From Laetmonice hystrix (lineage: Eukaryota), in contig OZ249436.1 in assembly GCA_965235115.1 (NCBI GenBank), positions 23,066,001 through 23,130,000 of the forward strand: DNA of 64,000 nt, given 5' to 3'. A program made the translations under genes and the position numbers. Below, piece after piece: positions 1,366 to 64,000 of this stretch (the stretch's first letter is position 1; each line of letters begins with the position of its first letter). The notes beneath the pieces were generated by a model, which saw nothing but the letters and a program-made list of their open reading frames with translations, was not told where the DNA came from and ran no database searches.

Positions 1366-3149
1366 GGTCCGGGCGTTCCTGTGGTTGGAACATGGGAGCT
1401 GGGTTGGGTTGTGGGACCGGTTGCTGAGGGACTTGGGTCCAAGGCAGCTTTTCTGCGATTAGGAATGAACCGATGAATTTCCTTGGCTGTTCAAGTCAAT
1501 GCCAGGTCAACGATTTTGTCAACAACCAGCCATAAGCTTCATATCGACAACAGGCAACGTGTATAACTTCTCCCATTGTTTTGACCCTCTGTTTAGGGAA
1601 CACCACAGCCCGAGCCTGCAGTGTGTGCAACCTGCGGCATGCTTGGCTATCATCATGATAATAACATGCTATGAAAAAAGTTGTATATACATTATGTATA
1701 TTCAATTTATTTTGTTGCAAAAGTTGAAAAAGTGTGTTTTCAAAGTTACTGTATAAAATGTTTGACATTTGAAAATGTGCTAAAGTCTTTTAATTTTCAT
1801 TAGTGAACTTTGAGGTGTCGTACAGGGGCCCCTCTGATAAGGAAACACCTCCATATAGTGAACATTTTTTTTCTCAATCCCCAAAGTGTTCACTATAATC
1901 CGGAAGTTTTACTTTTAATTCAATTGAGAGATGTCCTTTGATTGTTTTAACTATGGGGTCCTATGGAAGCGCTGGAACATTTATTATAAATTACGCTAGG
2001 CTGTTCCAACATCAGGCCCCATCCCCTCAGTTTGTTACCACTTTGCGACAACCTGCCCCGTCCCGTGCCCAAACATGAGAATTTATATCCTACAGGTGAT
2101 GACCACCAACCAATAAACGAAGACAAAATAGTGAAGAATAATAAATGACGTTTTCCTTATCAACAGGGCCAAGGAATGACACTGACTGGCCGAGACCAGC
2201 CGGGCAGCATCGAAGCTTTGAAGAATATCCTCTTTAGGGTACAAACTATGGTTACATTCTCTGGTGACTGCAGTGAGAGTCCATCATCAAATACACTCAA
2301 TAATAATTCTCAATAATACCATACGGATGTTGGTGTTAAGCAGTTTGGTGGTAAACTTACTGTGGAGGTAATGAACCAAATTAATTGTATTTAGAGAGGC
2401 TACGCGATTTGTTAAATTCCAAACTCGACGTTCTAAAATGTGTGATACTTGGACTCTACTCATTGGAACCTCTAGTTGCCTCAAATAGCATAGTTTTCAT
2501 ATCGAAAACTATTATACAAAAAAGTGTTTTACTAACTGTGCCTCATTACTGTTTTTCTAATTTCAACCAATGTAAAAAGGACGAACTAATTACTATTATT
2601 GAACGCTGTAGCCCCAAAAGCTGTAATGTAGTGGACCCACTCCCACCGTTTTTCTCGGATGTCGGTGTAGGCCTATGTGAAGAAATGATATCGCAGAACC
2701 CTAGAAATAATAATCCCCCACCCACATGGAGGGATTTTCAGTCTGGTTTGGAGCCATGCTGTAACCAGCTCTGTCTGAATCTACAATAAAAAGTGAGTAA
2801 ACTATCATGACGTGGGCAGACCCTGGAGAAGTTTCACTGTTTCGAATAAGATCCTAGTTTGAATAAAATCCTAGACCGAATCTTGAACTGGGTACCGTGA
2901 ATAAGTTCCTAACTTCATGGTGCATATAAAATCGCCGAGTGCTCTGAACCTAGGACAGATATGATTCTTTATTAATGAGAACTTTCAATATTATGAAAGT
3001 TGATCAGATCTTTTGAAGCATATTCAATCTTTAAAGCTACACTGTTTTTAAAACCTGTAATATCGACCCCCTGCCATATAAATCGGCTTAGTGTAACATG
3101 TAAAACTCAAATAAAAAATTGAGCAACCAAATGTAACGTGAGAATGCTT

Positions 3150-3607
3150 AGCTTACGCCGTTGCAATTGACGCAACAAGCAATTTGCTTGCGATGACCCA
3201 TCGCAACCAGGGGGATGCCAGTCGCTTGTCTCTCACTTGTCGCATCGGTAAGGGCCTATGTCCACATAAGCGATGGGCGGCCGACAGATCCTCCACAGTC
3301 CAAAGATTTAACTCATATAACTCCGCCATTTTGATATTCATACGTATAATCACATGACAAGTAAGGCGACTTCTGGTTGGTTGATCCAGTGGACACGTCA
3401 TTGCGACGGCGACGGCTACACTTGTGGAAAGCAGGAAAACAGTGTGATTCAGCTGCAACCGTCCTCGCAAAGAATGAACATGTTCATTCTTTGCGAGTTT
3501 GCGATGACCTTGCGATGGTCGACGAAGCCTGCTGCACTATGCAATGCGACCGTGGGAACGTGAAATCGCAACATGATCGCAACGGAATCACCTGTGTATC
3601 GCCAGCT
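3150..3607. mobile_element. PIF/Harbinger-like non-autonomous element fragment
   Basis: The right end CACCTGTGTATCGCCAGC is followed by TTA, with internal TTGCGATG/CATCGCAA repeats. I did not recognise a left end. Confidence 0.4.
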
Positions 3608-4284
3608 TACGCTCTATCTTCGAATTCGAATTCCCTGATTCGCGCCTGTCGCCACCCAAGTTCTTTTTTCACATGCCGAGTTTCAGCGCCTCTACGTTGA
3701 AGTTGATCGGAGCGTGGTTTTTCAGGACAATCCACCGATCCATTTCACTGCTGATAGACACACGACCACTGTCAAGTCTTCTGTCCAACACCTTCTTTGT
3801 CAGCTTTTTAGCTAATTCTGTTGTATGTATACATTGACTTTCGTCACTTAAAAGCCTGTTTCCTCGGAGGCATATTTACAATGCAAGCGTATGATGATGA
3901 TCAAATATAGTGGAGCGATACCAGAAGTTAGCATAGGATTCCCCAGGACTTGGGACTATTATGGGATTTGTTCGACGTCATTTGCAGCGCCCCTTTCGGA
4001 GAGCAGAGGCAAATTCAAACTCCTGCTATTATCATGTTATAGCTTTGGCCCGAATCCTAGTTAACAAAGATCAACATACTGCAGTACTGCAGCAACAGTG
4101 TGTCTTCACATATCAATAGGTAGCTATTGGTGACAGGTAAGCGTTTTATTTTCGAAGTTACAATGTACCTTTAACCCTTTTGGTCACTGATTACTTTTTT
4201 CATAAGAATTTTTTATAGGGGGTATAGTGATTTAGTTGAGCTATGGTGCCTTAGGTATTGTGGTTAGAGCTTTATGATATGTAC

Positions 4285-7289: not shown

Positions 7290-8400
7290 AAATGATGGTG
7301 TCAAATGAAAGAACATATATATTGCTTCCTGTCAGTGTTAGTGTTTAATAGTAGGTACATAGCTCTAACTTCAACCATTTACAAGTTATAGCCCTAAGAA
7401 AAATAAGAAAATATGGATGATGTCATTAGGACCTGATAGGTCACGTGACCTGAAAAATAACGGTGCCAAATGAAAGAGCATATGACTTCCTATTCGTGTT
7501 CAATAGTAACTATGACGCTAACTTCAACCGTTTACAAGTGATAGCCCTGAGAAAATATGGATGGCATCATTATGACGTCATAGGTCACGTGACCTGTAAA
7601 ATAATGGTGTCAAGTGAAAGAACATATATGACTTCCTATTAGTGTTTAATAGTAACTATGGTTCTATCTTCAACCATTCACAAGTTATAGCCCTGAGAAA
7701 ATATGGATGACATTCTTATGCCATCACAGGTCACGTGACTTAAAATAATAATGGTGCCACATGAAAGAGCATATATGACTTCCTATTCATCTTCAATAGT
7801 AGACTAAGTATGACTCTAACTTCAACCATTTACAAGTGATGGCCCTGAGAAAACATGGTTGACATCATTATGACGTCATAGGTCACGTGACCTGAAAAAT
7901 ACTGGTGTCAAGTGAAAGAGCATATATGACTTCCTATTAGTGTTTAATAGTAACTATGGCTCTATCTTCAACCATTTACAAGTTATAGCCCTGAGAAAAT
8001 ATTGATGACATCGTTATGACGTCATAGGTCACGTGACCTAAAAAATAATGGTGCCAAATGAAAGAGCATTATGACTTCCTATTCGTGTTCAATAGTAACT
8101 ATGGCCCTAACTGGCACTGTTTAGAAGTTATAGCCATAGATAGCTAAACTGGCCACTGTTGAAAATTTAAAGGTCACGTGATTCATCGAAGATAGGTCAA
8201 ATCGCTTATCTTTGGATGATTCTATTAAAACCCTTGTTAGAGAGTGTTCCTGTCCAATATTATCAAATTTTACCAAAAAAATAAGAAGAAGAAGCGATTT
8301 AACCGATTTGTGACCTAGGACCCAGTTCTCCCTAAGGTCAAAGGTCAAAGGTCAAATGAAGGGTCAGTTTTAGGCTAGACCCTTGCCTGATCATAACGCC
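7290..8400. repeat. ~120-bp tandem array (same family as 575-1365) followed by a Helentron/DINE-like core segment
   Basis: About 7 units of GGTGTCAAGTGAAAGAGCATATATGACTTCCTATTAGTGTTTAATAGTAACTATGG (7290-8130), then a segment rich in AAGGTCAAAGGTCAAAGGTCA. Confidence 0.8.
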
Positions 8401-8454
8401 ATGATAGATCTTGGAAATTCCAAATATGAACTTTGAAAATGGCCCTGGACCAAG

Positions 8455-8730
8455 AGTCATTGGATTGGGATCTGGGCTGGACCAGATTGAAATCATTATT
8501 TCGCCTGGACCAGTTGCCAAATGGTCCGGATCAGATCCCAATCCTATGACTGAAAACCTCGATTGGCATCCAGGCCAGCCCAGATCCCAATTGTGATCTG
8601 GTCTGGTCCAGTTTCCAATTGGTCCGGCCCAGATCCCAATTGGCATCCAGGCCAGCCCAGATCCCAATTGGTCCGAACCAGATTCGGACCAATTGGCAAC
8701 TGGGCCAGATTGGGATCTGGGCCACGACAC
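8455..8730. repeat. Short direct/inverted repeat cluster (CCAGATCCCAATT / TTGGGATCTGG)
   Basis: TTGGCATCCAGGCCAGCCCAGATCCCAATT occurs at ~8563 and ~8640, with inverted copies at ~8465 and ~8710. Confidence 0.7.
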
Positions 8731-10850
8731 ATACATGTCGTGTAGGAAAGGCTACCACAACATGCAGTCTGGTCCCCCACACAGCGCCCCCCTTATGCTC
8801 GACAGTGGGGACCGTGCGGCCAGGCTCCTGCCGGTTACTACCGCACACTAGATGGTTATCTAATAGGTCTAATGGGAGACCCAGCAAGGCTCCACTTAAA
8901 GCGATCCGAAACCGCCACTAGCAATAGCACTGGCTACACACTGATCATCGTAACGCGCGTTACGCTGATCCAAGATGGACGATCCCGATGCTCGCTTCGC
9001 GTGTTTTTGTTCAAGTTACAAGGGCTACGGTGCATCAACAACATAAAACAACACCTGAATATCATGATAACAATGTGTGCCTGCCGTTTGTCTCAGTTTG
9101 GGGTCCTAGACGGGCGTAGATTAAGAGAAAATGGACGCAGAAGATTTGGCGATGATACCCGTAACGCGCACCGCTGATCCCCGTAACGCAAGTTTAATTT
9201 GGTGACAGGATAGGCGTAACGCGGCACCTAAACCTTTCACTGAGCCTAAAGGTTTTTACGTAGACGAGTAGACGACTTTCAACATCGGCTCGTGATCTGA
9301 TAATGAATCTCAACTTTGTAATGAGCATTATCTACTTCAGTATGAAGGTAAAACCATGAGGTACACGTATATAATAGGGCGCGGATTAACAGCGTGTGTG
9401 ATACTATACTATAGGGCCCTACTATACTATAGGTGTTACCATACAGAGTGTGTGTGGACCCCAGGGCGGGGTCACGAATCTAAGACATGCCTGGCAGGCA
9501 CCATGAGAGATCGAGATGCTTTGTCCTTCCCCAGTACCCCGGGGTAGAGCACCCTGACTCCTCCGTCACAGGGAGTACGCTAGTGAATTTTGGGTATTAG
9601 CCACAGTGGCTAACAACTGAGGAAAAGAACTAGCCACAGGGAAAAAGTTTTAGCCACAGTTGTTTTAATGTTTTTTATTTGGCAATGGCTGCTGCCAAAG
9701 TACTTTGGGCGGAAGACCACCAAAAGGCTATTGCCAAAGTACCAATCAAAATACAGTATTTGTACTTTGGCAGCAACAAGCCAGGGTAATTGCTGCCAAA
9801 GTACCAATGGGCGACTGGCTGACAAACTGCTTGTTGCCTGATCCTGCCAAAGTACTTTGGAAGCAAGAAACATGTATACGGTCAACTCGGGGTTGATGCA
9901 TGTAACAAAGTACTGTGTCCGGATTATAAAGCCACACGATTGTGCAGGAGACTGTGGGCTTCAGTATCAAAGTACGTTGTCAGCAACTTTATCAGGAACT
10001 CTTATATTGCACATGTGGACGAACAACTTTTTCTGGAAGCGCTGTTACCAAACTCTATGGGTACACATGCACTGAAGTGTGAAAGTACAAAAGTTGTTAG
10101 GTGACGTTCAGACTATTACCGCGTTATATCAGTGGCGGATCCGGGGGTAGGGAGTTAGCCCCCGTAGCCAATTTGGTCTTTTTTCACCATTGAACGGTCT
10201 TAATTGTTCATGACTACTCCCCTCCCCCAGAAAATTCTTCCCTTTAACCCCGCCCACTTCCTAAATCCCGGATCCGCCCTGTATCAATACGGTTTTTAAT
10301 ACCAAAGTAGGCCTACTTTGACAGGAAAAAGTGTGATTAAGCCTATACTACAATTTCTAAGCATGACCTACTGAGCCAACGTCCTTTTTGTCTGGAAACA
10401 TGAAATCTCTGGACCTGAGATTTAGTCTTGACACACTTTTTTCATGACACACAGGGATATTTTCGATGGCGAAGTACTTTGTCAGGTGACGCTGTCTGAA
10501 CATGACGTTTATTGACAGAATAAAGTCAGGAAGTCAAGTGGTACTATATTTTGAACATGAGCTTTATTGCCAACCGACCCTTCACATTGGACATAGAGAA
10601 TTACAACTGTCGGTGTGGAGAAAATCTTAGGTGTAAAAGCAGAAGGTATACTCGTAGTTTGCTGACGTCGTCAAGGTAATGTAGGCCTACTTAGGTAGGC
10701 CTGTATAATTTGGAGATGCCAATTAACATGCGAAACTGTGTAACCCTGAAAAAAAGCCTTTCAGACCTTCCTTCGAGAGTTACAGTAAAACAGCCTGCGG
10801 TAATTTGGCCCGAATCTGTATAGTAATATGGAACAATTGGAAAAAGTGGA

Positions 10851-11378
10851 CACGCCCTACCCCTTGCTGCCACAGTACCTTGGCAATAACAATGCAGTCT
10901 AACCCCCTACCCCTTGCTGCCACAGTACTTTGGCAATAACAATGCAGCCTAACCCACTACCCCTTGCTGCCACAGTACTTTGGTAATAGCAAAGCAGCCT
11001 AACCCCCTACCCCTTGCTGCCACAGTACCTTGGCAATAACAATGCAGCCTAACCCCCTACCCCTTGCTGCCACAGTACTTTGGCAATAAGAATGCAGCCT
11101 AACCCCCTGCCCCTTGCTGCCACAGTACCTTGGCAATAACAATGCAGCCTAACGCCCTACCCCTTGCTGCACCATTACTTTGGCAATAACAATGCAGTCT
11201 AACCCCCTATCCCTTGCTGCCACAGTACCTTGGCAATAACAATGCAGCCTAAGCCCCTACCCCTTGCTGCCACAGTACTTTGGCAATAACAATACAGCCT
11301 AACCCCCTACCCCTTGCTGCCACAGTACCTTGGGAATAACAATGCAGCCTAAGCCCCTACCCCTTGCTGCCACAGTAA
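10851..11378 (+). repeat. 50-bp tandem array, about 10.5 copies
   Basis: CCCTTGCTGCCACAGTAC(C/T)TTGGCAATAACAATGCAGCCTAACCCCCTAC starts every 50 bp from 10861 to 11361. Confidence 0.95.
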
Positions 11379-11399
11379 CAATTTGTTAACCGATGTTGC

Positions 11400-11480
11400 C
11401 AGGTTTGGTTTCCGTTGTCTAAGCTGTTCATATTGATAATGAAACCAGACATGACAGTTGTCGCACTGGATTTTTTTGGC
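11400..11480 (-). pseudogene. PHD-finger remnant (probable MULE transposase C-terminal part)
   Basis: Minus-strand IQCDNCHVWFHYQY matches the PHD motif IQCDxCxxWxHxxC, with the last Cys lost. Confidence 0.55.
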
Positions 11481-11809
11481 GCGGCCAGATCTGATGCCAG
11501 TCCCTCGCTCCACAGTCATTTGAATGGTTCGGCCAAGAACTGCTGGTACGTATGTTGGCGGTAGTCTGGTACGTGGAGCTGCGTGAGTGATGAAGGTGCC
11601 ACTCCTCTCACGAGTGCATCTGCATTCTGAATTAACAAGAATGTCGACAATCATCAATAAATCAATTTTATTTTTATCAAATTGATCAGTCTCTTTGCCA
11701 TAAATGGTAAAGTTTATGGTTACAGTGCAAGTAATCAAAGAGTCTATCAATTTTAACTGAAATGACAGATGGCGTGGTTTCTGATGAGATATTACCAAGC
11801 TAATGTGAG

Positions 11810-12075
11810 AGCAAGGGGCAGGGCGTTAGGTTGCAATGGTTATTGCCAAAGTACTTTGGCAGCAAGCGGCAGAGGGTTACGCTGCATTGTTATTGCCAAA
11901 GTACTGTGGCAGCAAGGGGCATGGGATTAGGCTGCATTGTTATTGCCAAAGTACTGTGGCAGCAAGGGGCAGGGCGTTAGGCTGCATTGTTATTGCCAAA
12001 GTACTGTGGCAGCAAGGGGCAGGGCGTTAGGCTGCATTGTTATTGCCAAAGTACTGTGGCAGCAAGCGGCAGGGT
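11810..12075 (-). repeat. Inverted copy of the 50-bp array, about 5 copies
   Basis: GGCTGCATTGTTATTGCCAAAGTACTGTGGCAGCAAGGGG is the reverse complement of the 10851-11378 unit, with 50-bp period. Confidence 0.9.
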
Positions 12076-12239
12076 TTTAGACAGGGTCGATAATATTTAT
12101 GGTACTCGGTACATAAATATCATAAGGCGATATCATAATCACATCTGTAACAGCTAAGGTCTGGCCTTGTTGCAGCCCTGTAACAATCATGGCAAAATGA
12201 TTTTAACTTCGCTCTGATTTACCGTTAATTATGTTAAAT

Positions 12240-12426
12240 AATGTAGAAATGAACTAACCTTATCCCCTCTAGGATCCATATGTCTTGTCTTCCTGGGTGT
12301 TTTTGTAGATACGTCTTCACAGTTTCTGAGGCGTATATGTGATAAACAACATTCTGACCCTGCTTGTACTGGTCAAATGCCTCAGAAAAGCTGTGGTCCG
12401 TCGGAAACGTGTCACCCAGCTTCATT
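12240..12426 (-). pseudogene. ZSWIM1/3-type MULE transposase N-terminal remnant
   Basis: MKLGDTFPTDHSFSEAFDQYKQGQNVVYHIYASETVKTY resembles the MxLGxxFxxxxxFxxxFxxY start of ZSWIM3-like MULE proteins and lies just inside the right TIR. Confidence 0.5.
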
Positions 12427-14237
12427 ATAGCAGGACTAGTCAAGATGGCACCTCCTGGTCCTAGTCTTGGCGCCAAAAAAATCTAGGTCATTATGTAACA
12501 AAGCTTCTGATTGGTACTTTGACAATAGCGTTTTGGTCGTCTTCCACCCAAAGTACTTTGGCAGTAGACACTCCGTTTTTATTTAGGTAACCAGAGTTCA
12601 TTATACTACATGTATTATACAGTCTTAATTTCTCTGTATAATATAAAGTACATGTACTTTCATTTGCCAGCTGTGTGTAGGCCTAGTGAACGTTTTTGGG
12701 GGAATAAGCTGTCCTATATCTCGAGGATAACTCTACACAAGTGGCCCTCTTGAGCAGCAAGAATATTGGGATCCAGTACAGTACACCTACACCTCAGAGG
12801 AGGCCTGGCCCAAATTGACGGGTACCTAGGCTATAATACCCTCTCATCACAGCGATCCCCCCTGACAGTCCCCACCCCTCACACCCCCGACCCCCGTACT
12901 GAGCGGCCGAGCTGCCTCCCCACCTTCATGCCATGTGACCTCAGCCATGCTATGTGTCGCCTGTCCTCTCCTGGTACACTCAGCCTGCTAGGTAATCGGA
13001 TTAAACTAGGCCTATATTACTCCTACAGGCTGACTGGCATCTGTCATAAACTCACCCCAGATGGACTGGACCCAGGCCGGGGAGACGGGCCATTACTGAG
13101 GGCCGGCCTGACCTGGGGTAGTCCGTAGTAGACTAGGGGGAACAGACGCATACGGGCGGCTGGCCTGGCCTGGCGGAGAGACCGGGTCGGGTGGGTCGGT
13201 CACCCTGGTCTCTGACCACCCACATGTCACACCGACACACGTGCTCCAACCACAGTCAGTGGTGGATCAGGCGTGCATGAGGGGGGGGGGGACCTGGGCT
13301 ATAAACTGGAGACAGCTGGAATTTGCAGGCGTGGCGAATTTGGTGGTTTATTTTGGCAGTGGAACTCGCCACAGGCTGGAAGTATTCGCGTTTGCGAGCG
13401 TGGCTACCGCTAACGTACTCCGTTCTACATGAAGTTAAACTGTCAAAACTCTGCCACAACCTGCACAAGATTTCAAATAACACAAACAATTAAATTCTCT
13501 TCAAACGAAAACTGGTTTTTTTACTTGAAAGACGAAGAATAAAGGCAGTACAGCTTACGAGTGAATGGCAGGCTAACCAGCAATGAGTCGCGTTACGGGT
13601 ATCAATAATTCGCGTTACGGGTATCATTTGTCAACATGCTTGTCCGCGTTACGGGTATCACAGCGAAAATTTTCGGAGCGATTTTTGAGATTTCTAGGCA
13701 ATCTCAGGCGCCGAGGTTCACCAAACATGATGCCACCATTACAATAAACAACTCTGACGTCTTACAGATAAATCAGAGACACGGAACTGCTTGAAATACG
13801 CCTAGTTTTAGTTGAAGCGAGACCTGCCTTCCTCCATCTTGGATCAGCGTAACGCGCGTTACGATGATCAGTGTGTAGACAGTGAATAGGGCCCATGGAT
13901 AACCATGGTATACATAGTGCCTTTTACCTGCCACCATCTAATTCCCACAAAGTCTGTGTGTTAAAAGTAATCCCCGATAGAAACTGACAGTTGCCCGTTT
14001 GCTCACTGCATCCATCTTGCCGAAATTCACTGCCGTGAGACCTTAAAAAATGGCGTCCCTAGAGCCTACCCCATTCCCCCATCACTGTGTTGGTCAACCA
14101 TCTTCACGGACACTATGTACAATAATGGTTACTGGTGAACTCGGACCATGGTTATCTCGGCCCATGTCGATTACATGACTTCATGTCCCATGCGTACCCT
14201 GTCCCAGGCTCCATGCCTCACCCGACACCCGAGTCTG

Positions 14238-47228: not shown

Positions 47229-47231
47229 TTT

Positions 47232-50981: not shown

Positions 50982-51088
50982 GAGAGAGAGAGAGGGAGGG
51001 AGGGAGGGAGGGAGGGAGGGAGGGAGGGAGGGAGGGAGGGAGGGAGGGAGGGAGAGGGAGAGAGAGAGAGAGAGATAGAGAGAGAGAT
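50982..51088. repeat. (GA)n/(GAGG)n microsatellite
   Basis: Read directly from the sequence. Confidence 0.95.
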
Positions 51089-52184: not shown

Positions 52185-52451
52185 GGGGCCTCGGGTGGCC
52201 GAGTGGTCTAAGGTGTCGGCTCCATCATGACACCTAGGACCATCGCCTCACACCGCTGCGACCCGGGTTCGATTCCCGGCCTGGGCTGCATGTGTGAAAG
52301 GTTTGTCAGTCAGTTCCTTCCCGAAGGTCGGTGGTTTCCTCCGGGTACTCCGGTTTCCTCCACCAAGAAAAACTGACTTTCATCTCATCTTCACCGCCGT
52401 GATATGACCCTGGCTGTTGCAAGGCGTAAAACCCCAAATACCCACCCACCC
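52185..52451 (+). mobile_element. tRNA-derived SINE with V-type central domain
   Basis: A box TGGCCGAGTGG, B box GGTTCGATTCC, V-domain-like GGTTTCCTCCGGGTACTCCGGTTTCCTCC, (ACCC)n tail, 11-bp TSD ACGACATTTGT. Confidence 0.9.
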
Positions 52452-52997
52452 ACGACATTTGTACTGCAAGTTAATTGCATGTTCGTCACTGATAAAGAAA
52501 TAACAAAACGTCGGATAAGTGAAACACCTGCTTTGAAGTTATTTATTATAATACCTTGCAAGTGAAGGTCCGAAATAGACATTTTTAAAATAAGCGTTTT
52601 AACTAGCACATAGGCCTAATATCAACATAGTAAATTTAACACTTTGGCAACATCGCCCGTAATCCCTGCACAGGGATGAATCTTAATGAAGAAGGATACT
52701 GGAAGTGAATCAGACACATAAAAATAAAAGTTAACTCATTCATGCGTAACATACAAATCACGTGTGGTGGAACGTTAAACCTAAAGGGTCAATACATAGG
52801 CAGCAGGTACCGCATCATAAAATCTTCTGGCCGCTGCCACGGGGGTGCACGCATTTACGAAAAATCTGAAAAAATATGACATGATGCCATTATAATAACT
52901 TCGGTGTATTCATTTTAAAGGCAGGGTAAACACCTACGGCAAATAAGGTTTCGTAGACCAAATGAAACACCAGCATTTACCTCAGGGCAATAAATGC

Positions 52998-53280
52998 CAC
53001 AATTACGTTGTCTGAATGAAGTAATTAACGTGTAACCGCCCGATGTATGACGCCGCTGGTTCTTACCTTGACCTTCTTGTGTGTTCATCAGAGGCAAATG
53101 CTGCACACCGCGGCGTATTGCGTAACATTACGTGTTACTCTGCTCACAGACCTTGTCTACACGATGTTTGGAGTCCCAACGTTTGTAAACGTCCGAGTTG
53201 TTGAACACACAAGTAGAACCAGCGGCGTCACATATCGGGCAGTTACACGTTAATTACTTCATTCAGACAACGTGATTGTG
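52998..53280. mobile_element. MITE with CACAAT termini and about 68-bp TIRs
   Basis: CACAATTACGTTGTCTGAATGAAGTAATTAACGTGTAAC... and its inverse ending ...CGTGATTGTG. TSD unclear (ATGC/TTGC). Confidence 0.7.
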
Positions 53281-53282
53281 TT

Positions 53283-54050
53283 GCTATCTATATAACCCCT
53301 CGCTTTGCTCGGGGTTTTATAGATAGCACCCCTAGGTTGTTCTTTTTTTTCTCTCGAAAAGAAATCCTCGATTTCATCTCGTGTTTTTTTCTCTCGAAAA
53401 TATCAGTTGATATCGTATATTAGGCGCAAAATATTATTTTCAGAGAGGGTACTGATCTGTTTACCTACAGTATAGGGGGCGCTCGTGTGATCGCCACCCA
53501 TTGTACGGTAGCCCAGAAGTACAAGTGTAGCTAGGCATTTTAGTAAGCGTATTATAGTGGTTATGCTAATTTCTTTTGCCCATGGAACAAACAGTAAAAC
53601 GAGAATAAGTTAATCATTTATTTTGCCAACTCGAGCAATTAAGTGCGGTGGCCAGCCTCGACAGTAATGTTGAAGGTGCAGTGTTGATATACAGTTCCTG
53701 ATGGGGCCACTGTGGATGTGTCCGTTGAGGTCGCAGCAGCAGATGGAAAGCGGTTTGGGAAGGTCTCACTCATCTCAGAAGGGTCAACAGAATCGATCAG
53801 ACTGCTGATGGCGACCTTTTGAGGATCGGTTGCCCCGACGGATGCGACGTTGCGACGCGTTTGCGAATACCGTTCCGGTAAAATTGAGGTCGTTAAATTA
53901 AAATATGTTGGACTTTTAGGCCCCGAGTGAAGGTTTAAAGGTTTTCCGTAAGTTTTTATTAGTGTACTTCTGAGCCACCGTACAGTCATAGGCAGAGCAT
54001 GGTCTGACAGAATCACGTGATCGTGTGATCGTCATGGTTCACTGAAAGCA
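53283..54050 (-). mobile_element. Crypton-like element remnant (terminal palindrome + tyrosine recombinase/DUF3504-type C-terminal tail)
   Basis: Palindrome GCTATCTATATAACCCC-TCGCTTTGCTC-GGGGTTTTATAGATAGC. Minus-strand QKVAISSLI...VYQHCTFNITV resembles the CryptonA C-terminus. Confidence 0.5.
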
Positions 54051-54071
54051 CCACCACAAACTGGCCACCAG

Positions 54072-57000
54072 GGCCCATATTCATAAAAGCCTGCTAAGCC
54101 TAGTTGGCAACTATTTTGGGCCTTAGCTGCCAACTAAGCCTAGTTGGATACTAGATATTATTCATAAAATGCCGCTTAGCTTAGTTGACTGCTAAATTGT
54201 CTGCTAACTTTAGAGATGATCTTGGGTACCTCTAAGTCACTAGTTGACAAATAAATCCTTCATTTGTATGTTTGACTCTGACGTGAAAGCATGGCTAGAC
54301 GGATGAGGAGGGATAGAGTATTCAGAGACAGGCGTAATCCAATTGATATTTTTATGATGATGAATTGATCAAGCGATATCGATTTTCACGGAAAGGCATC
54401 ATGTTTAATAACGTTTATGTTTATAACTTTTCAAATGTTTGTTGGCGATCCCATACAAATATCACAATAAACCTCCTGCCGAGGTGTCAACAGAGTTTCA
54501 CAAGCGCTATCTGGGAAAATTAACAACTTTGTAAAGTTGCCTGAACAAGGGCAAGTTGATGTAATTTAAGATGAACAGGATCAGGAACTTTCCAGGTATT
54601 ATAGGCTGTGTTGACACATATTTGGATAATTTCACCCCATCTTAATGAGGCTGACTATATCAACAGGAAAGGTTATCACTCCATAAACGTTCAAGTGATA
54701 TGTGATCATAAGGGGAAATGGATAAACATTGTTCATAGATGACATCCTTGGTTGGTCCTTTAGAACTGTCTGTACATTGATTTCTATAGGCACACACAGT
54801 TCGTGCATGCACAGCTCTATTATTAGACACATAAACATGCCATCCCTATTGAAAGTGAAACTGACGCATGTTGGGATTTGTGGTTTGGCACACGGCCAAC
54901 TGCTAAGTTAACAACCAACTAAATCCTAGTTGACAACTACCTGGCACTGTCCCTATCAGGGTTTTATGAATCTGGAAATAGCAGGAAACTATGGAGCAGG
55001 AAACTAGGCATTTAGCAGCCTGCTAAGGCCTAGTTGGCTGCTAGTTTAGTAGGGTTTTATGAATATCGGCCCAGGACTGACCACCACTGCCCTATATATC
55101 GTGGTCTGTACATGCCATATGGGGGTTGTGCTCACTCAACTGTGCATTTATCAGTTGGGGATCCTTGGCATGTCGACTCTATGCTTCATAGCTACCAGGG
55201 CCCATATTCATAAAAGCCTGCTAAGCCTAGTTGGCAACTATTTTGGGCCTTAGCTGCCAACTAAGCCTAGTTGGATACTAGATATTATTCATAAAATGCC
55301 GCTTAGCTTAGTTGACTGCTAAATTGTCTGCTAACTTTAGAGATGATCTTGGGTACCTCTAAGTCACTAGTTGACAACTAAATCCTTCATTTGTATGTTT
55401 GACTCTGACGTGAAAGCATGGCTAGACGGATGAGGAGGGATAGAGTATTCAGAGACAGGCGTAATCCAATTGATATTTTTATGATGATGAATTGATCAAG
55501 AGATATCGATTTTCACGGGAAGGCATCATGTTTAATAACGTTTATGTTTATAACTTTAAATGTTTGTTGGCGATCCCATACAAATATCACAATAAACCTC
55601 CTGCCGAGGTGTCAACAGAGTTTCACAAGCGCTATCTGGGAAAATTAACAACTTTGTAAAGTTGCCTGAACAAGGGCAAGTTGATGTAATTTAAGATGAA
55701 CAGGATCAGGAACTTTTCAGGTGTTATAGGCTGTGTTGACACATATTTGGATAATTTCACCCCATCTTAATGAGGCTGACTATATCAAGAGGAAAGGTTA
55801 TCACTCCATAAACGTTCAAGTGATATGTGATCATAAGGGGAAATGGATAAACATTGTTCATAGATGACATCCTTGGTTGGTCCTTTAGAACTGTCTGTAC
55901 ATTGATTTCTATAGGCACACACAGTTCGTGCATGCACAGCTCTATTATTAGACACATAAACATGCCATCCCTATTGAAAGTGAAACTGACGCATGTTGGG
56001 ATTTGTGGTTTGGCACACGGCCAACTGCTAAGTTAACAACCAACTAAATCCTAGTTGACAACTACCTGGCACTGTCCCTATCAGGGTTTTATGAATCTGG
56101 AAATAGCAGGAAACTATGGAGCAGGAAACTAGGCATTTAGCAGCCTGCTAAGGCCTAGTTGGCTGCTAGTTTAGTAGGGTTTTATGAATATCGGCCCAGG
56201 ACTGACCACCACTGCCCTATATATCGTGGTCTGTACATGCCATATGGGGGTTGTGCTCACTCAACTGTGCATTTATCAGTTGGGGATCCTTGGCATGTCG
56301 ACTCTATGCTTCATAGCTACCAGGGCCCATATTCATAAAAGCCTGCTAAGCCTAGTTGGCAACTATTTTGGGCCTTAGCTGCCAACTAAGCCTAGTTGGA
56401 TACTAGATATTATTCATAAAATGCCGCTTAGCTTAGTTGACTGCTAAATTGTCTGCTAACTGTAGAGATGATCTTGGGTACCTCTAAGTCACTAGTTGAC
56501 AACTAAATCCTTCATTTGTATGTTTGACTCTGACGTGAAAGCATGGCTAGACGGATGAGGAGGGATAGAGTATTCAGAGACAGGCGTAATCCAATTGATA
56601 TTTTTATGATGATGAATTGATCAAGAGATATCGATTTTCACGGGAAGGCATCATGTTTAATAACGTTTATGTTTATAACTTTAAATGTTTGTTGGCGATC
56701 CCATACAAATATCACAATAAACCTCCTGCCGAGGTGTCAACAGAGTTTCACAAGCGCTATCTGGGAAAATTAACAACTTTGTAAAGTTGCCTGAACAAGG
56801 GCAAGTTGATGTAATTTAAGATGAACAGGATCAGGAACTTTTCAGGTGTTATAGGCTGTGTTGACACATATTTGGATAATTTCACCCCATCTTAATGAGG
56901 CTGACTATATCAAGAGGAAAGGTTATCACTCCATAAACGTTCAAGTGATATGTGATCATAAGGGGAAATGGATAAACATTGTTCATAGATGACATCCTTG

Positions 57001-58437
57001 GTTGGTCCTTTAGAACTGTCTGTACATTGATTTCTATAGGCACACACAGTTCGTGCATGCACAGCTCTATTATTAGACACATAAACATGCCATCCCTATT
57101 GAAAGTGAAACTGACGCATGTTGGGATTTGTGGTTTGGCACACGGCCAACTGCTAAGTTAACAACCAACTAAATCCTAGTTGACAACTACCTGGCACTGT
57201 CCCTATCAGGGTTTTATGAATCTGGAAATAGCAGGAAACTATGGAGCAGGAAACTAGGCATTTAGCAGCCTGCTAAGGCCTAGTTGGCTGCTAGTTTAGT
57301 AGGGTTTTATGAATATCGGCCCAGGACTGACCACCACTGCCCTATATATCGTGGTCTGTACATGCCATATGGGGGTTGTGCTCACTCAACTGTGCATTTA
57401 TCAGTTGGGGATCCTTGGCATGTCGACTCTATGCTTCATAGCTACCAGGGCCCATATTCATAAAAGCCTGCTAAGCCTAGTTGGCAACTATTTTGGGCCT
57501 TAGCTGCCAACTAAGCCTAGTTGGATACTAGATATTATTCATAAAATGCCGCTTAGCTTAGTTGACTGCTAAATTGTCTGCTAACTTTAGAGATGATCTT
57601 GGGTACCTCTAAGTCACTAGTTGACAACTAAATCCTTCATTTGTATGTTTGACTCTGACGTGAAAGCATGGCTAGACGGATGAGGAGGGATAGAGTATTC
57701 AGAGACAGGCGTAATCCAATTGATATTTTTATGATGATGAATTGATCAAGAGATATCGATTTTCACGGGAAGGCATCATGTTTAATAACGTTTATGTTTA
57801 TAACTTTAAATGTTTGTTGGCGATCCCATACAAATATCACAATAAACCTCCTGCCGAGGTGTCAACAGAGTTTCACAAGCGCTATCTGGGAAAATTAACA
57901 ACTTTGTAAAGTTGCTTGAACAAGGGCAAGTTGATGTAATTTAAGATGAACAGGATCAGGAACTTTTCAGGTGTTATAGGCTGTGTTGACACATATTTGG
58001 ATAATTTCACCCCATCTTAATGAGGCTGACTATATCAAGAGGAAAGGTTATCACTCCATAAACGTTCAAGTGATATGTGATCATAAGGGGAAATGGATAA
58101 ACATTGTTCATAGATGACATCCTTGGTTGGTCCTTTAGAACTGTCTGTACATTGATTTCTATAGGCACACACAGTTCGTGCATGCACAGCTCTATTATTA
58201 GACACATAAACATGCCATCCCTATTGAAAGTGAAACTGACGCATGTTGGGATTTGTGGTTTGGCACACGGCCAACTGCTAAGTTAACAACCAACTAAATC
58301 CTAGTTGACAACTACCTGGCACTGTCCCTATCAGGGTTTTATGAATCTGGAAATAGCAGGAAACTATGGAGCAGGAAACTAGGCATTTAGCAGCTTGCTA
58401 TGGCTGCTAGTTTAGTAGGGTTTTATGAATATCGGCC
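54072..58437 (+). mobile_element. Tandem array of four ~1-kb deleted Harbinger elements (54072-55071, 55199-56196, 56324-57321, 57449-58437) with identical 127-bp spacers; period 1125 bp
   Basis: TIR GGCC(C/G)ATATTCATAAAA with CWG flanks. HARBI1 remnants [44 protein letters not shown]. Confidence 0.92.
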
Positions 58438-58522
58438 CTGGTCAGCTCAGGACCTGGAGCGCTATATTCAGTCTCGCTTCGCTCGACTGAACATAGCGCT
58501 CCAGGCCCTTCGCTGACCAGTG
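58438..58522. repeat. Crypton-type terminal palindrome
   Basis: CTGGTCAGC..CCTGGAGCGCTAT.TTCAGTC-TCGCTTCGCTC-GACTGAA.ATAGCGCTCCAGG..GCTGACCAG. Confidence 0.55.
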
Positions 58523-58523
58523 C

Positions 58524-59062
58524 CGGTGTGATGTGGTAAAGTGACCCCGTGGTAAAGTGACCCCGGGGTCAATTTACCACGTGGTAAATCGACCCCCGGG
58601 TCACTTTACCACAGTGGAAAAGTGACCTCCCCTGTGGAAAAATGACCCAGGTTGAATAACATAGATATTAGGCATAACGTCTATCGTCATTTTACTGCTT
58701 CTTGGTATTTTTCAACAGTTTTGACACCTGTTCAGCAGTACTCACTTTCGCGACTTGCGCAAATTTAAAAGGGCAAACCAGCAGATCTATACGGGTGCTA
58801 CCTGTACGCCCCTCGGTTAGGGTTAAGGTGAGTTTAGGGTTAGGTCTATTTGAATTAACACTATTTGCAAATTGCGCAGATTGACAAATTGAGTACGACA
58901 TATGAACAAAAACATCCTTTTGTATCCTTGTAAAATAAACAGAAAAAGAAATGTCTTAACTTTTCCTTGATGGTCAGATTACCATAGGGAGGGTCACTTT
59001 TCCACTGTGGAAAAGTGACCCGGGGGTCAATTTACCACGGGGGTCAGTTTTCGATGTGCCAG
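58524..59062. mobile_element. MITE with GTGGTAAAGTGACCCC subterminal repeats
   Basis: Inverted repeat blocks at 58533-58650 and 58987-59050. Confidence 0.6.
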
Positions 59063-59436
59063 GGGCCGCACAGAAGGTTGATAGTGCTATCAGCATCACT
59101 ATCAATACTGATAGCCATTGAGTTTTAGTGGCCAGTATCAAAACCCACACTATCAGCACCTTCTGTGCGGCTGGCCCAGGTAGCTATCTAGAACATATCG
59201 GCAGATAATCCACAAACTGCAGATGAAATTAGTACTTCACTCATCGTTTGCCGCCATCTTGTACCCGGGTTGTAGGCCTACTCTTGGCACAGCGAGAGTC
59301 GCTCTTGGAGGGTAGAGGTAACCTCATCGATGACAGACAGTTCGGCAACTCGAGCGACTCGGGTGATTTCGATTGCAACTCGGGTAGTCGAACTCGGGCA
59401 TGAATCGAAGTCGGTCATTGGTGCACTCGGCCCCCG

Positions 59437-60135
59437 GGCTGCGTTCGGATGGGCTGTTCTTGACACTCGAACCTGGTCTTGTTGTTCGGATGGACTGGGG
59501 AACCAATACGAACGTTGTTCTTTTCATACGAACAGTGCCGAACATGTTCACGAACATTGTTCTCCCCACTCCCCAACAAGGCAGGGGTGAGAAGAACAAA
59601 TATGGCGGACGGCATGCCATCAACGTCAATGTTCTCATGTCAAAATTGGAATATTTGTAAATTTATTCAAGAACAGTAGTCATTTTGAAAGAAAAGATGC
59701 TTAGTATATCAATCATATAGGATACCGGTAATTGACTGACCAAGAAGACCAGTTTGGCCTATAGCCTAGGTCTAGATATGTGGTAAACTGGGCGCTCCGA
59801 CGCTGGACAGGTCAATCACAGGTGCTAGCTTGCAAAGTTGACAGTGGCGGATCCAGAGGGGTCCAGAAAAGGCCTTGTCTCCCCCCTAAAAATTCTACAA
59901 CTACCAAAGGCATCACGCTGTCACATTTTGAAAGAACTAGACTAGTGATTCACCACCAGATAATTGTTCAATTCATCATTGCTGGGTGCAGCCATTTTGT
60001 AAGGTTATAGTTCTCGGTGTTTGGATGGTGCTATGAAGAACATGTTCCAGGTGCGTGTTCTTTGTTGTTTGAATGATCAGGAACATGTTCCTGAAGTGTT
60101 CAGGAACATCAAGAACAGCCCATCCGAACGCAGCC
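59437..60135. mobile_element. PIF/Harbinger non-autonomous element
   Basis: TIR GGCTGCGTTCGGATGGGCTGTTCTTGA, with CCG on both sides. Confidence 0.75.
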
Positions 60136-60744: not shown

Positions 60745-61672
60745 CTGTACACTAGCTCCGAGTTATTATTTGGTCGTTATGGACCTGGGCAAGCGATAGG
60801 ACACTTTACAAAGTGGTGACCGGGACGGGTCCACTGGGATAATTCCGCCAGGACTACTATGTAGTATTTTACAAACTCGTGACTGCGATGGGACATTTTA
60901 CAACATGTTCCTGAGCTGCGCGTTATGAGAACGTCAACACCATTATACCTGGAACTTTGGGATCCTGCAGGACACATGATTGTGTGCTCGTGAGTCTATA
61001 GCCAGGTAACTTCATTCTCCTGTTACAATTGCGGCAAGCTAATGCTTGCTCCTTCAATGGTGAGTGCATGCTATACAGTCTGTAGTTCCGAGTCACTGAT
61101 TATTTCCATGTTCAACCATTGTTAGCCTCATTTACCTCCCAGGGTTTCTTCAGGCCAGCTTCTGTTGTACAGGGCCTACAGATAACACCACGGAATCGAC
61201 GCGAGCCTTATACTTTACTCCTATGCGGGAGAAATAGTAATCTGTAATTTGTATTTGTGCATTTCAATATCGCGTGGTTTACCTCATGCAGATGAGAAAT
61301 AAAGTCTGTGTTTGTTTGCTCCCTACAAACGTAGTTTGGACTCACAAAACCCGTACGTTAGCCATAATGTCATTGGATGACGTGCATGGCGTTGGGACAC
61401 TGTGCACCTAATGTCCAGATGGTCACGTCCCTGGCCGCAGCCAGATTTGGTAAATGAGCGATACTCTCGGCAGTTTACGGCATGGCTCGGAAATCGACCT
61501 GACCACCGGCCGAGCCATGGGACCCTATGGGAATAAGGTTATTTAACAATCAGCGCTTCTGATTGAAGCTAAATTCACCTACTGGGTTGGTAAAGGTGGT
61601 AGAGAGTTCTACGTAGGATCGATCCAATGACCTTGGACGATGAGCATATGCTGATACGGGGGCAGGGGTGTG

Positions 61673-61727
61673 TTTTTAGCCCCCACAACGGGGGGCTTAT
61701 AATTCGACCTCCGTCCGTCCGTACGTG
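61673..61727 (+). mobile_element. Helentron/DINE-1-like 5' end
   Basis: TTTTTAGCCCCCACAACGGGGGGCTTATA (T-run plus short hairpin), followed by (GTCC)n. Confidence 0.55.
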
Positions 61728-64000
61728 GGTCATATCGCCCAGAAATGTACATTTGGCGAAAAAGAAGGTCAAAATTGAAAAACATGAATATTAATGTATT
61801 TTTTGCCTAAAAGTATTCTATAGGTAATGAGGTTTCTGAGAAATGTCATTATACTGATATCATCCTAACGGTGTAGTTTCTGTAGCAGTTCAAAGTATAG
61901 GTGCCTTTTTTCCGTGACGTCCGAGATAATTTTGGGTGCTGGAATGTATGATCTCAATTATTAGGCTTATTCTCCATTCTATTGATATCATGCTTTGTAA
62001 TTTAATGCTTCAGGTTATCTGTGTTTGAAATTTAGAAACAGAATTCGTGTGGCCCTTAGCAAATCGTTTCTGATGGGCTTTGCAAAAATGAATTTCTTCA
62101 GGAAAAAGGTACCAACCAAAGCATTTTTTCTTCTGTAAATTGACTTTAGTTTTACTATGAATCCCAGCTCTGAAACAATTTTTTTTTACCATGTAACAAT
62201 CAATCAAAAGGTATACTTCTTTGGGAAATTATAAATTTTAGACACCAGACGACAAGTACGATGCCCAGAATTATTTTTTGGTGTGTATCATAAGTCTCGG
62301 ACGTCACTTTTGCATCTCGAACGTCATGCGTCTGTTTGTTCTGAGTACAAATGAACACATATTTATAAGTACAAAACATAGAAAATTGAGGGGATGATTG
62401 CAGTAACGTCCAACCCAACAGTATATTGGTCAAATTGTACCTGTTTGGTGCAAATTATCCTAAGACACAGGTTTGTTCGAGGCTTTGGACATTCTTGCTC
62501 ATTATGTGTGGGTTTGTATGTTATTGCATTGCACTTTGTAAAAAGGCCATTTTGGTGTTAAATACTTCATTTTTTTCCTCAAAACAACAACCATGTGGGT
62601 TTCGATGTTACTGCACCCAGCCCCCAAATCATAGGCCTATGTCTATCGCACCCTATGGACATGTAATCGTGTTTTTTTAGAAGAGAAGCCAATTTGAAAA
62701 TTCATCCAAAAATTTAAGTTTAAGAAACAGTTAACTAATAATATACACACACACCTGGTCCTCACATGCATCTTCAGACATAATTTCACTAACATTGGAG
62801 AACGATTTATATTCAGAATGCAGTTCAATGTGAGAACACGTGACGTCCGAGATTTCGAAATTATATCAAAAATGGTACTAAGATAATGGATTTGGTAAAT
62901 TATTGGTTGTATTCATGTAAAGTATGCCAAAAGTGCTAGAAATATTGGTAAAATTTATTCATGGTACCGAAAGGAACTGAATTGGGAGAGGGTGAAAAGT
63001 GGGCATGACGTCCATAATAAATATCTCGGACGTCTCGCTATAGTGCTTTCTTTTGTCCACAGAAGTAAAAATCATAAGTTTAGATGTTCAAGAACAAGAA
63101 ATAATCTATACAGATACACAGAGGGATCTTGGCCAATACTGATAGAAGAAGAACCTATACACGACTTTTTTCAGCCCTTTTTTCTGTAAATTTGTATACT
63201 TTCGAGACGTCCGAGATTTGCTTAGGCAGCATTTTTACATAAACCTAGGAGACGAACGTGAAAACCACAGTTTCACACAAAAATACAATCTATTTAAGAC
63301 ATGTATAAACGTTTAAAACAGTGTCAATTAGCATGAAATTCAGTCTGCAGTCATTTCAAGAAAAGTATAAACAAAATCTCGAACGTCATCTTTTGACAAA
63401 CAAACAATCGGACCAAAACTTCATCTTCACTTCAAAGGGAATGCACGTCTCATATCCCCCTGCAACGGGCACTGAACACTTGAAGGTCAGAACTACTTTG
63501 TGGAAATCAACATGTTTCCGGACAAAATTGAGTATATATGTTTTCTTGGAAGGAATCAGATGTCCATCTGACGTAATGTTTCACTTTTCGGAAGTAGTAT
63601 AACACTGACATTCAGGATTTCGGGGAAATAAGATGAAGTATTTGCTAAAAACATGCTTAAATCGATCCTCCCGACGTATGCGACGTATCCATGCAGCTGG
63701 AAGTGCCGTCATACCGTTGTAACGACTCGTCAAAAGGGCAAAAGACGTATGCGACGTCTCGGACGTCACGCTTGTCTCGGACGTCATGTTCGGCATTTAC
63801 CCACCTCAATTTTTGTGTTACTGTGAATGGATTGCGTTAATATATGGAGGGTATTTTGCCTTTGAGGTAAAGATTATTTATGTATAGCACGGGGATTATT
63901 AGTTGGAAAAGACTTAATTTATCTAGGTATTATTGTGCATGACGTCCGAGACTTGTTTTAGTATAAAAGTTCTCAAGCGGCGGTAGCTGGGCAAGATTAC
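61728..64000. mobile_element. Unclassified DNA transposon with dispersed TGACGTCCGAGA repeats; may run off the window
   Basis: Starts GGGTCATATCGCCC. GACGTCCGAGA or its inverse occurs about ten times between 61916 and 63952. Confidence 0.5.

What the first reader, a model, noticed from the sequence alone, without database searches (positions are those of the whole stretch)
2668..62639. TA -> TAGGCCTA micro-insertions throughout the window: probable excision footprints of an unidentified GG...CC transposon
Seen: I counted about 25 exact TAGGCCTA octamers (e.g. 2668, 10308, 10682, 14642, 24702, 24715, 38744, 41253, 47551, 59273), where about one is expected by chance, plus TAGCCTA, TAGGCTA, TAGGGCCTA and TAGGGCCCTA variants. 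Paralogs show they are insertions at TA: Harbinger copy B has TAGGCCTA at 47551 where copy A has TA (46916), and copy A has TAGCCTA at 46817 where copy B has TA (47651). Established: Tc1 (CA...TG ends, TA target) leaves TACATGTA-type footprints. Inference: an extremely active TA-targeting element with GG(G)...(C)CC ends has left such scars. The 6-bp form preserves reading frame (it adds GL in ORF 47377-47790).
Basis: partly seen in the sequence, partly recalled or inferred. Interest (0 to 1): 0.7.

Follow-up and report, generated by a model that had tools for sequence, protein, structure and literature searches.

The report
Transposon excision scars at TA sites
The eight-letter word TAGGCCTA is scattered through this invertebrate DNA because six letters were inserted again and again at plain TA sites, most likely as scars left when a cut-and-paste jumping gene hopped out, although the jumping gene itself was not found.

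Summary
Confirmed: 25 exact TAGGCCTA in 64 kb against 0.71 by shuffling, in 23 independent contexts. They are insertions at TA. Both Harbinger pairs hold, and 144 of 144 spanning homologs lack the extra residues. Three further places point the same way: two LINE remnants and one inverted-repeat pair. Flanks are symmetric, A-W-R-TA-Y-W-T, as for Tc1/pogo targets. The same scar, at about 0.4 per kb, occurs in other animals' DNA from metagenomes. There its variants always keep two G or two C on one side, which rejects independent trimming of GGG...CCC ends and suggests self-complementary GGC/GGCC ends or a templated repair step. No TA-GG...CC-TA element was found in 436 kb, while TA-CA Tc1-like elements were common, so the source and its superfamily stay unknown. 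'Extremely active' is not shown: 2 scars per 96 substitutions in paralog pairs. The scan reported the same scar 17 Mb away in this genome, and analogous scars in other genomes. Verdict: excision footprints (0.75), a new variant of a known kind.

The parts
2668..2675 (.). TAGGCCTA, origin not tested
9412..9421 (.). TAGGGCCCTA, the only G3C3 form; origin not tested
10308..10315 (.). TAGGCCTA in a fully palindromic flank of the pogo/Passer target type
   Evidence: target consensus from PMC9976928 passage
10682..10689 (.). TAGGCCTA, origin not tested
12678..12685 (.). TAGGCCTA, origin not tested
13007..13014 (.). TAGGCCTA, origin not tested
14642..14649 (.). TAGGCCTA, origin not tested
17213..17219 (.). 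TAGCCTA that is a chance match: it lies in frame in LINE coding sequence
18076..18084 (.). Nine-letter variant (G2C3/G3C2): 7 extra bases that shift the frame of a LINE endonuclease remnant
   Evidence: DNI-to-DH span 79 nt = 72 + 7
24702..24722 (.). Two TAGGCCTA (24702, 24715) around a 5-base CA..TG core: 19 extra bases inside a second LINE endonuclease remnant; at least one, probably two, TA-to-TAGGCCTA events nested with another scar
   Evidence: span 91 nt = 72 + 19
32044..32074 (.). 27-base TA-flanked mini element with GG ends (7 of 8 end bases complementary); candidate remnant only
32085..32104 (.). 16-base TA-flanked mini element with GGCC ends (6-base inverted ends); candidate remnant only
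35552..35559 (.). TAGGCCTA, origin not tested
37584..37592 (.). Nine-letter variant, origin not tested
38667..38675 (.). Nine-letter variant, origin not tested
38744..38751 (.). TAGGCCTA, origin not tested
38765..38772 (.). TAGGCCTA, origin not tested
39702..39709 (.). TAGGCCTA inside the left inverted repeat of a ~954-base Kolobok-like insert (39692-40645); the right repeat has plain TA. The left arm has 8 extra bases, i.e. 2 more than the scar alone explains
   Evidence: (joints)
40658..40665 (.). TAGGCCTA; may be shared by other copies of a multi-copy repeat
   Evidence: joint 39690>40658
41148..41155 (.). TAGGCCTA, origin not tested
41253..41260 (.). TAGGCCTA, origin not tested
42289..42297 (.). 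Nine-letter variant, origin not tested
42372..42382 (.). G5C2 variant, origin not tested
43611..43618 (.). TAGGCCTA, origin not tested
44493..44500 (.). TAGGCCTA, origin not tested
45277..45284 (.). TAGGCCTA shared with 49586 (same MITE family, one event)
45362..45369 (.). TAGGCCTA shared with 49671 (same MITE family, one event)
46557..47003 (+). Harbinger-type transposase remnant, copy A; empty TA at 46916
   Evidence: 6 of 9 long homologs scanned carry DDE_Tnp_4
46817..46823 (.). TAGCCTA: 5-base insertion that frameshifts copy A
47465..47912 (-). Harbinger-type remnant, copy B (inverted duplicate of A); empty TA at 47651
47551..47558 (.). TAGGCCTA: 6-base insertion adding Gly-Leu in copy B
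49586..49593 (.). TAGGCCTA, paralog of 45277
49671..49678 (.). TAGGCCTA, paralog of 45362
52611..52618 (.). TAGGCCTA, origin not tested
59273..59280 (.). TAGGCCTA, origin not tested
62632..62639 (.). TAGGCCTA, origin not tested
8371..59768 (.). The other 13 seven-letter variants (8371, 12827, 29033, 32032, 37272, 40125, 42319, 43693, 45345, 51253, 51260, 51719, 59762); a mix of scars and chance matches that was not sorted

Best explanation
The words are excision footprints of a TA-targeting cut-and-paste DNA transposon. The element inserts at a TA in a symmetric A-W-R-TA-Y-W-T context and duplicates the TA. It later excises with cuts a few bases inside its own ends, and end-joining repair leaves TA + GGCC + TA, less often a 3-, 5- or 6-base core. 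Shown: insertion polarity, duplicated TA, target bias, spread over many unrelated contexts, the same scar family in other animals. Inferred: that an element sat there, its end sequence, the cut positions and the repair route. The variant spectrum suggests the overhangs pair with each other (ends starting GGC or GGCC) or that repair copies the opposite overhang. Plain independent trimming of G-run ends does not fit. The superfamily is open: IS630-Tc1-mariner/pogo type (my odds about 55%), a PIF/Harbinger relative with a TA duplication (about 30%), or another group (about 15%).
For: 25 vs 0.71 expected. Polarity from outgroups: 144 of 144 homologs spanning residues 68-96 are shorter than copy B, 122 by exactly 2 residues (151 compared, 7 did not span). 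123 of 125 proteins with a measurable W-V-x..G-x-F motif (copy B included) have the 15-residue spacing, while copy A is frameshifted there. In two LINE remnants the DNI-to-DH span is 79 and 91 nt, and both equal 72 nt plus the scar letters. One arm of an inverted-repeat pair has the scar, the other plain TA. Purine next to the TA in 40 of 50 flank positions vs 0.52 background, P 3e-5; T at -2 and A at -3 in half; 0.72 vs 0.51 in 149 unselected copies from other animals. Published targets are ATATATAT for ZB/SB (PMC7913693) and AAGTACTT for Passer (PMC9976928). Mariner-type excision leaves the duplication plus element-end bases (PMC4561436). In 119 animal-like loci (367,352 bases) there are 167 copies not selected by the search pattern vs 4.5 expected; 2 of 8 well-flanked six-base indels there are TA vs TAGGCCTA. 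Known precedents for GG ends with a TA duplication: an Entamoeba Fot-like element and fungal PHISTA.
Against: No resident source. Of 30 TA-GG/CC-TA end pairs with at least 10 of 12 matching bases in the window and 120 loci, none is a clearly bounded element on inspection, whereas 8 clear TA-CA...TG-TA elements were seen in the loci. No filled allele among collinear gapped paralog pairs. No ITm-type transposase hit among 129 window reading frames scanned. Reads could not show polymorphism: one sample, contigs only, 12 of 144 indel rows shown, none a 5-7-base loss at a scar. Only 4 of the 25 eight-mers could be polarised. The LINE argument rests on two remnants without a homolog set (one search found none). 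TA+GGCC+TA cannot be told from T+AGGCCT+A with no duplication. The spectrum test uses other species, pooled and chosen by the motif.
Confidence: 0.75

Rival explanations
1. No full insertion-excision cycle: a transposase or host nuclease cuts at TA and repair adds a templated or enzyme-supplied GGCC, or an element with AGG...CCT ends inserts between T and A with no duplication and leaves AGGCCT.
For: It explains why the commonest scar has no resident element while Tc1-like elements with rarer scars do. Templated inserts by polymerase theta at transposon breaks are documented in C. elegans (PMC4490562 passage). Spy elements insert without duplication (PMC4482050 passage).
Against: The core is constant whatever the flank, so it is not copied from the neighbourhood. 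No enzyme that adds GGCC is known to me (own knowledge). Spy targets AAATTT, not TA.
Confidence: 0.13
2. Leftovers of the canonical Harbinger/Tourist MITEs that abound here (GGC ends), collapsed between their GGCC ends.
For: GGC-ended MITEs are present (19513-19969, 35951-36319, 46113-46360). One TAA-GGCC-TAA word exists at 30675. A 16-base TA-flanked GGCC-ended remnant lies at 32085.
Against: Those MITEs have 3-base TAA/TTA duplications where readable, while the tested scars add 5, 6 or 7 bases around a 2-base TA. Only 1 of four TWA-GGCC-TWA words occurs, once. mPing-type elements excise precisely (PMC4561436).
Confidence: 0.05
3. A fixed word inside repeat consensus sequences, or a selected protein-binding site.
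For: 4 of 25 copies are inherited within one MITE family. 40658 may be shared by a multi-copy repeat. Copies are mildly clustered (8 bins, P 0.045).
Against: 23 contexts are unrelated. Copies interrupt dead coding remnants and one arm of an inverted repeat. The length variants form a regular series.
Confidence: 0.03
4. Programmed removal of germline elements in body cells, so that the sequenced tissue shows only scars.
For: It would explain the missing resident element.
Against: Scars are inherited through duplications. One-base decayed forms are in excess (TAAGCCTA and TAGACCTA in 7 distinct contexts each vs about 1.7 expected), which points to long residence in the germline.
Confidence: 0.02
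5. Library or assembly artefact (linker or ligation junction).
For: The word is a perfect palindrome containing a six-cutter site (own knowledge).
Against: Same word, variants and flank bias in independent public assemblies. Inherited and decayed copies.
Confidence: 0.01

Closest known systems
Excision footprints of Tc1/mariner and pogo elements (Tc1, Sleeping Beauty, ZB, Passer, Stowaway/Osmar)
   Same: Both TA copies kept, a few constant bases between them, symmetric AT-rich target. Passages read: PMC4561436, PMC7913693 (2-4 bp footprints, ATATATAT target), PMC9976928 (0-4 bp, AAGTACTT target), PMC4490562 (Tc1 leaves two-base non-complementary 3' overhangs).
   Different: The core is GGCC, not CA/TG-derived. 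No source element was found. The variants keep two bases on one side and reach 6-7 core bases. The density is about 0.4 per kb in natural DNA.
Fot/Fot-like pogo elements (PMC7386202; passages and rows of supplement 3 read)
   Same: Several have GG ends; one row (Entamoeba invadens, GGGGT ends) has TA/TA duplications.
   Different: The GG-ended rows I saw are fungi, red algae, oomycetes and an amoeba, most with TAA or TAAA duplications. I saw 37 of 99 'GGG' hits, so animal rows may have been missed. Their footprints were not described in what I read.
PHIS superfamily: PHISTA, ISL2EU, canonical PIF/Harbinger (PMC12730594 section 14 and 2 of 15 PHISTA supplement rows; PMC4482050 passages)
   Same: GG/GGC/GGG ends are typical; PHISTA makes TA duplications; ISL2EU makes 2-base duplications.
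   Different: PHISTA is reported from rust fungi only; ISL2EU duplicates AT; canonical Harbinger duplicates TWA and excises precisely.
Earlier scan notes: e1-7908793 (same genome), e1-7787614, e1-7811178 (TACATGTA), e1-7577140 (TACCGGTA in diatoms)
   Same: Same reading: uniform insertions at TA, source element not found. Unchecked AI notes, not independent support.
   Different: This report adds outgroup polarity, nested scars, and the asymmetric variant spectrum in other animals.

Membership tests
Tc1/mariner-pogo (ITm) excision footprint | Insertion at TA with both TA copies retained | tested here: met
   (formally equal to a 6-base insert between T and A)
Tc1/mariner-pogo (ITm) excision footprint | Symmetric AT-rich target preference around the TA | tested here: met
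   published consensus
Tc1/mariner-pogo (ITm) excision footprint | Core letters equal the terminal bases of a resident TA-flanked element | tested here: inconclusive
   No bounded TA-GG element in 436 kb; only two mini remnants (32044, 32085); no whole genome held
Tc1/mariner-pogo (ITm) excision footprint | Source element encodes an ITm-type DDE/D transposase | not testable with these tools
   Source not found; no such Pfam hit among 129 window frames
Tc1/mariner-pogo (ITm) excision footprint | Empty, filled and footprint alleles at one locus | tested here: inconclusive
   Empty and footprint states seen in paralogs; no filled state; read tables cut, one sample
Canonical PIF/Harbinger (Tourist) | 3-base TWA duplication | tested here: not met
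   Tested scars duplicate only TA
Canonical PIF/Harbinger (Tourist) | Precise excision without element bases | tested here: not met
   Constant 3-5 base core left; published behaviour
PHISTA (PHIS with TA duplication) | TA duplication and GG ends | tested here: inconclusive
   Scar is compatible; 2 PHISTA consensus rows seen start with a G run; no element here
PHISTA (PHIS with TA duplication) | Harbinger-type DDE transposase of that lineage | not tested
   Source not found; the DDE_Tnp_4 remnants in the window were not placed in a tree
ISL2EU | AT duplication | tested here: not met
   ATGGCCAT occurs 2 times vs 25 for TAGGCCTA; definition
hAT-type footprint | Added bases are a palindromic copy of the flank | tested here: not met
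   Core is the same in all flanks; definition

The most novel reading that the evidence does not exclude
An undescribed TA-targeting transposase lineage with self-complementary GGC/GGCC ends (or a hairpin or templated step at excision) works in hit-and-run fashion at very low copy number. It has written a scar roughly every 2 kb into the non-coding DNA of several invertebrates, making it a leading source of small insertions although almost no element is left to annotate.
Probability: 0.3. Interest if true: 0.7.

Novelty: new variant of a known kind. Interest (0 to 1): 0.45.

Why it matters
Excision footprints are known from laboratory assays but are rarely counted in natural genomes. Here one scar family marks about 0.4 sites per kb. 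That is a record of transposition that resident-element annotation misses entirely, and a directional source of 5-7 base insertions (2 of 20 indels in the window's paralog pairs). The scar's letters and variant spectrum make a concrete prediction about the ends and cutting chemistry of an element not yet identified, so the question is directly testable with a whole assembly. It also warns that an enriched TAGGCCTA 'motif' in such genomes need not be regulatory.

Tried and rejected
No whole genome is held, so no genome-wide count was possible. Searches for a TA-GG...CC-TA element in the window (outputs of 9 and 12 were cut) and in 120 loci found none. Recurrent TA-GG 'ends' across loci had conserved upstream letters, i.e. 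were internal to repeats. Sequencing runs: 3 runs, one sample, contigs only, possibly the source of the assembly. Laid on 37850-46100 they gave cut tables (12 of 144 indel rows, 15 of 331 joints, 18 of 3141 loose ends). A loose end behind 45365 in 2 contigs could not be interpreted. A triple-motif scan of viral contigs gave 16 loci, mostly tandem repeats, without dispersed scars. A 26-base repeat word of the window was absent from metagenome contigs. No homologs were found for the LINE endonuclease frame. A 469-residue frame in L044 is a low-complexity host exon, not a transposase. The 9-base difference at 55026/58401 is a deletion in an internal repeat, not a scar. Controls: 18 of 408 other TA-N4-TA and 11 of 329 other TA-N3-TA words had an 'empty' match, nearly all self-overlaps or tandem repeats. 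One locus (L094, bacterial-looking) was dropped before the spectrum counts. The RPS24 exon did not resolve the phylum. Ten literature searches found no paper on TAGGCCTA as a natural footprint; one search listed 40 of 283 papers, none on this subject by title, and subscription journals and Repbase are not covered. PMC4455052 and PMC2874221 passages added only general background.

Full report
Observation. The window holds 25 exact TAGGCCTA, at the coordinates given, against 0.71 in dinucleotide shuffles and 1.01 under an order-2 Markov model; no other TA-N4-TA word or palindromic 8-mer comes close. Seven-letter variants number 15 (6.6 expected), nine-letter variants 4 (0.59), plus one G3C3 and one G5C2 form. 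Two pairs of copies are inherited within one MITE family, which leaves 23 independent contexts. The DNA is a repeat-dense animal region with an RPS24 exon. That exon's named relatives are mostly bilaterian animals and do not fix the phylum; other scan notes say 'probably annelid' (unchecked). No whole genome is held.

Are they insertions? Yes, where it can be tested. The inverted Harbinger-type duplicates (46557-47003 and 47465-47912) differ by 10 substitutions and 2 indels in 442 aligned bases, and both indels are scars. Outgroups give the direction. Of 151 homologs, 144 span the site, and all 144 are shorter than copy B, 122 by exactly two residues. At the other site 123 of 125 measurable proteins share copy B's spacing, while copy A is frameshifted. 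Six of nine long homologs scanned carry DDE_Tnp_4. Three more places agree. In two LINE endonuclease remnants the span from the DNI motif to the DH motif is 79 nt (with the nine-letter variant at 18076) and 91 nt (with the two eight-mers at 24702 and 24715 around a CA..TG core); both equal 72 nt plus the scar letters. This rests on two sequences only, since no homolog set was found. The 19-base case can also be read as one scar later duplicated as an 8-base target, so it shows at least one event. An insert of about 954 bases, delimited by joints in public contigs, has the scar in its left inverted repeat and plain TA in the right one, with two further unexplained bases. A counter-example keeps the count honest: the seven-mer at 17213 is native LINE coding sequence. 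In all, 4 of 25 eight-mers, 1 seven-mer and 1 nine-mer were polarised; the rest are inferred by class.

Target signature. Read outward from the TA and pooled over both sides, position 1 is a purine in 40 of 50 cases (background 0.52, P 3e-5), position 2 is T in half and position 3 is A in half. This resembles ATATATAT (ZB, SB; PMC7913693 passage) and AAGTACTT (Passer; PMC9976928 passage). Mariner-type excision leaves the duplication plus element-end bases, whereas Harbinger-type excision is precise and hAT footprints copy the flank (PMC4561436 passages).

Other animals. Twelve of 24 long frames scanned had Pfam hits, mostly animal-type (TRIM, SRCR, CDK5 activator, RasGEF). Only one locus shares a repeat with the window, so these are other species. 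After dropping one bacterial-looking locus, 119 loci (367,352 bases) hold 167 copies not chosen by the pattern, vs 4.5 expected. The 21 loci of 5 kb or more carry 0.41 extra copies per kb, like the window's 0.39, though selection by the motif biases this upward. The purine bias recurs (0.72 vs 0.51, 149 copies). Among 144 well-flanked indels between paralogs, 2 of 8 six-base ones are TA vs TAGGCCTA, 1 of 6 five-base ones is TA vs TAGCCTA, and 7 of 24 two-base ones are TA vs TATA. Seven directly repeated scars show that one TA can be hit twice.

What the variants say. In these loci the forms with exactly two bases on one side are all in excess: G1C2 144 (38 expected), G3C2 32 (1.8), G4C2 16 (0.4), G5C2 1 (0.08). 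The others are not: G1C1 73 (80), G3C1 3 (7.7), G4C1 2 (1.6), G3C3 0, G2C0 94 (129). If each end of a G-run terminus were trimmed independently, G3C1 should reach 17.6 (observed 3, P 3e-5), or 11.7 under the most lenient scaling (P 0.003). Overhangs that pair with each other would do better (inference): three-base GGC overhangs give the seven-mer with a central mismatch, as Sleeping Beauty's ends do (recalled), and the eight-mer by a perfect two-base overlap. Four-base GGCC overhangs, or repeated copying of the opposite overhang, can give G3C2 and G4C2. Against a simple version of this, the non-overlapping products of GGC/GGCC ends were all absent (0 in four words tested). The sample pools species, and the window's own counts are compatible but too small to test.

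The missing element. No bounded TA-GG...CC-TA element was found in the window or the loci, 436 kb in all, while eight clear TA-CA...TG-TA Tc1-like elements were seen in the loci, whose own scars are much rarer (TACATGTA 29 vs 8.3 expected). Two tiny TA-flanked remnants at 32044 and 32085 have GG and GGCC ends but prove nothing. No ITm transposase was hit among 129 window frames. The three public runs are one sample, contigs only, and their tables were cut; of the 12 indel rows shown, 5 are TA losses or gains (4 places) and none is a scar-sized loss. Precedents for GG ends with a TA duplication exist in two superfamilies: a Fot-like pogo element and fungal PHISTA. ISL2EU duplicates AT and canonical Harbinger TWA, and both fail here.

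Rate. Over 11 paralog pairs in the window (5,842 aligned bases) there are 96 substitutions and 20 indels, of which 2 are scars. One-base decayed forms are in excess. So the process is substantial and includes recent events, but 'extremely active' is not shown; long accumulation fits as well.

Verdict. Excision footprints of a TA-targeting cut-and-paste element, confidence 0.75; it works like a Tc1/mariner footprint, but membership cannot be claimed without the element. Ten literature searches found no description of this scar (open-access library only). The scan itself noted the same scar 17 Mb away in this genome and analogous scars elsewhere (unchecked notes). New variant of a known kind; interest 0.45.

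Noticed in passing
window 27406-29631 (minus strand): Host RPS24 gene: an exon at 29341-29631 matches Ribosomal_S24e; a likely last exon lies near 27406-27714. No TAGGCCTA occurs between 24723 and 35551.
   Followed up: partly
window 12607, 12649, 22464, 23635, 30446, 36292, 36298, 45544: A second scar-like word, TACATGTA, 8 copies vs 1.3 expected, with a direct repeat at 36292-36305; TACAWTGTA 7 vs 0.7 (one duplicated).
   Followed up: partly
window 8928-13884: 4.96-kb element with 52-base inverted ends starting CAC and a 5-base duplication (Transib-like by recalled rule), holding inverted arrays of a 50-base unit and weak PHD and ZSWIM3_N hits.
   Followed up: no
window 54064-58441: Four head-to-tail copies (period about 1125, 98-99% alike) of a GGGC-ended, CAG-flanked element with a DDE_Tnp_4 remnant, like the NuwaI group.
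   Followed up: no
window 39692-40645 and 25716-26300: Kolobok-like inserts flanked by TTAA-type duplications (family name by recalled rule); public contigs skip the first one.
   Followed up: partly
window 38519, 38978, 43529, 43581: Other copies of multi-copy repeats differ from the window by one TA, possibly duplication-only footprints or slippage.
   Followed up: no
window 578-1362, 7289-8140, 36920-37235: Arrays of a 146-base repeat; a related sequence occurs in metagenome locus L060 at about 80% identity.
   Followed up: no
window 16800-18717 and 23646-24790 (minus strand): Two or three decayed LINE remnants (RVT_1, endonuclease motifs, a weak L1-type ORF1 hit).
   Followed up: partly
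window 52185-52430: Looks like a tRNA-derived SINE by eye; not scanned.
   Followed up: no
L052:9544-9704 vs 13366-13511: Two inverted copies of 160 bases differ by several scars, three in one copy and one in the other, one nested in another TA-bounded insertion.
   Followed up: partly
window 45365: Two contigs of run X3 leave the window's sequence right after TAGG inside a scar; could be a filled allele or a divergent MITE copy.
   Followed up: no
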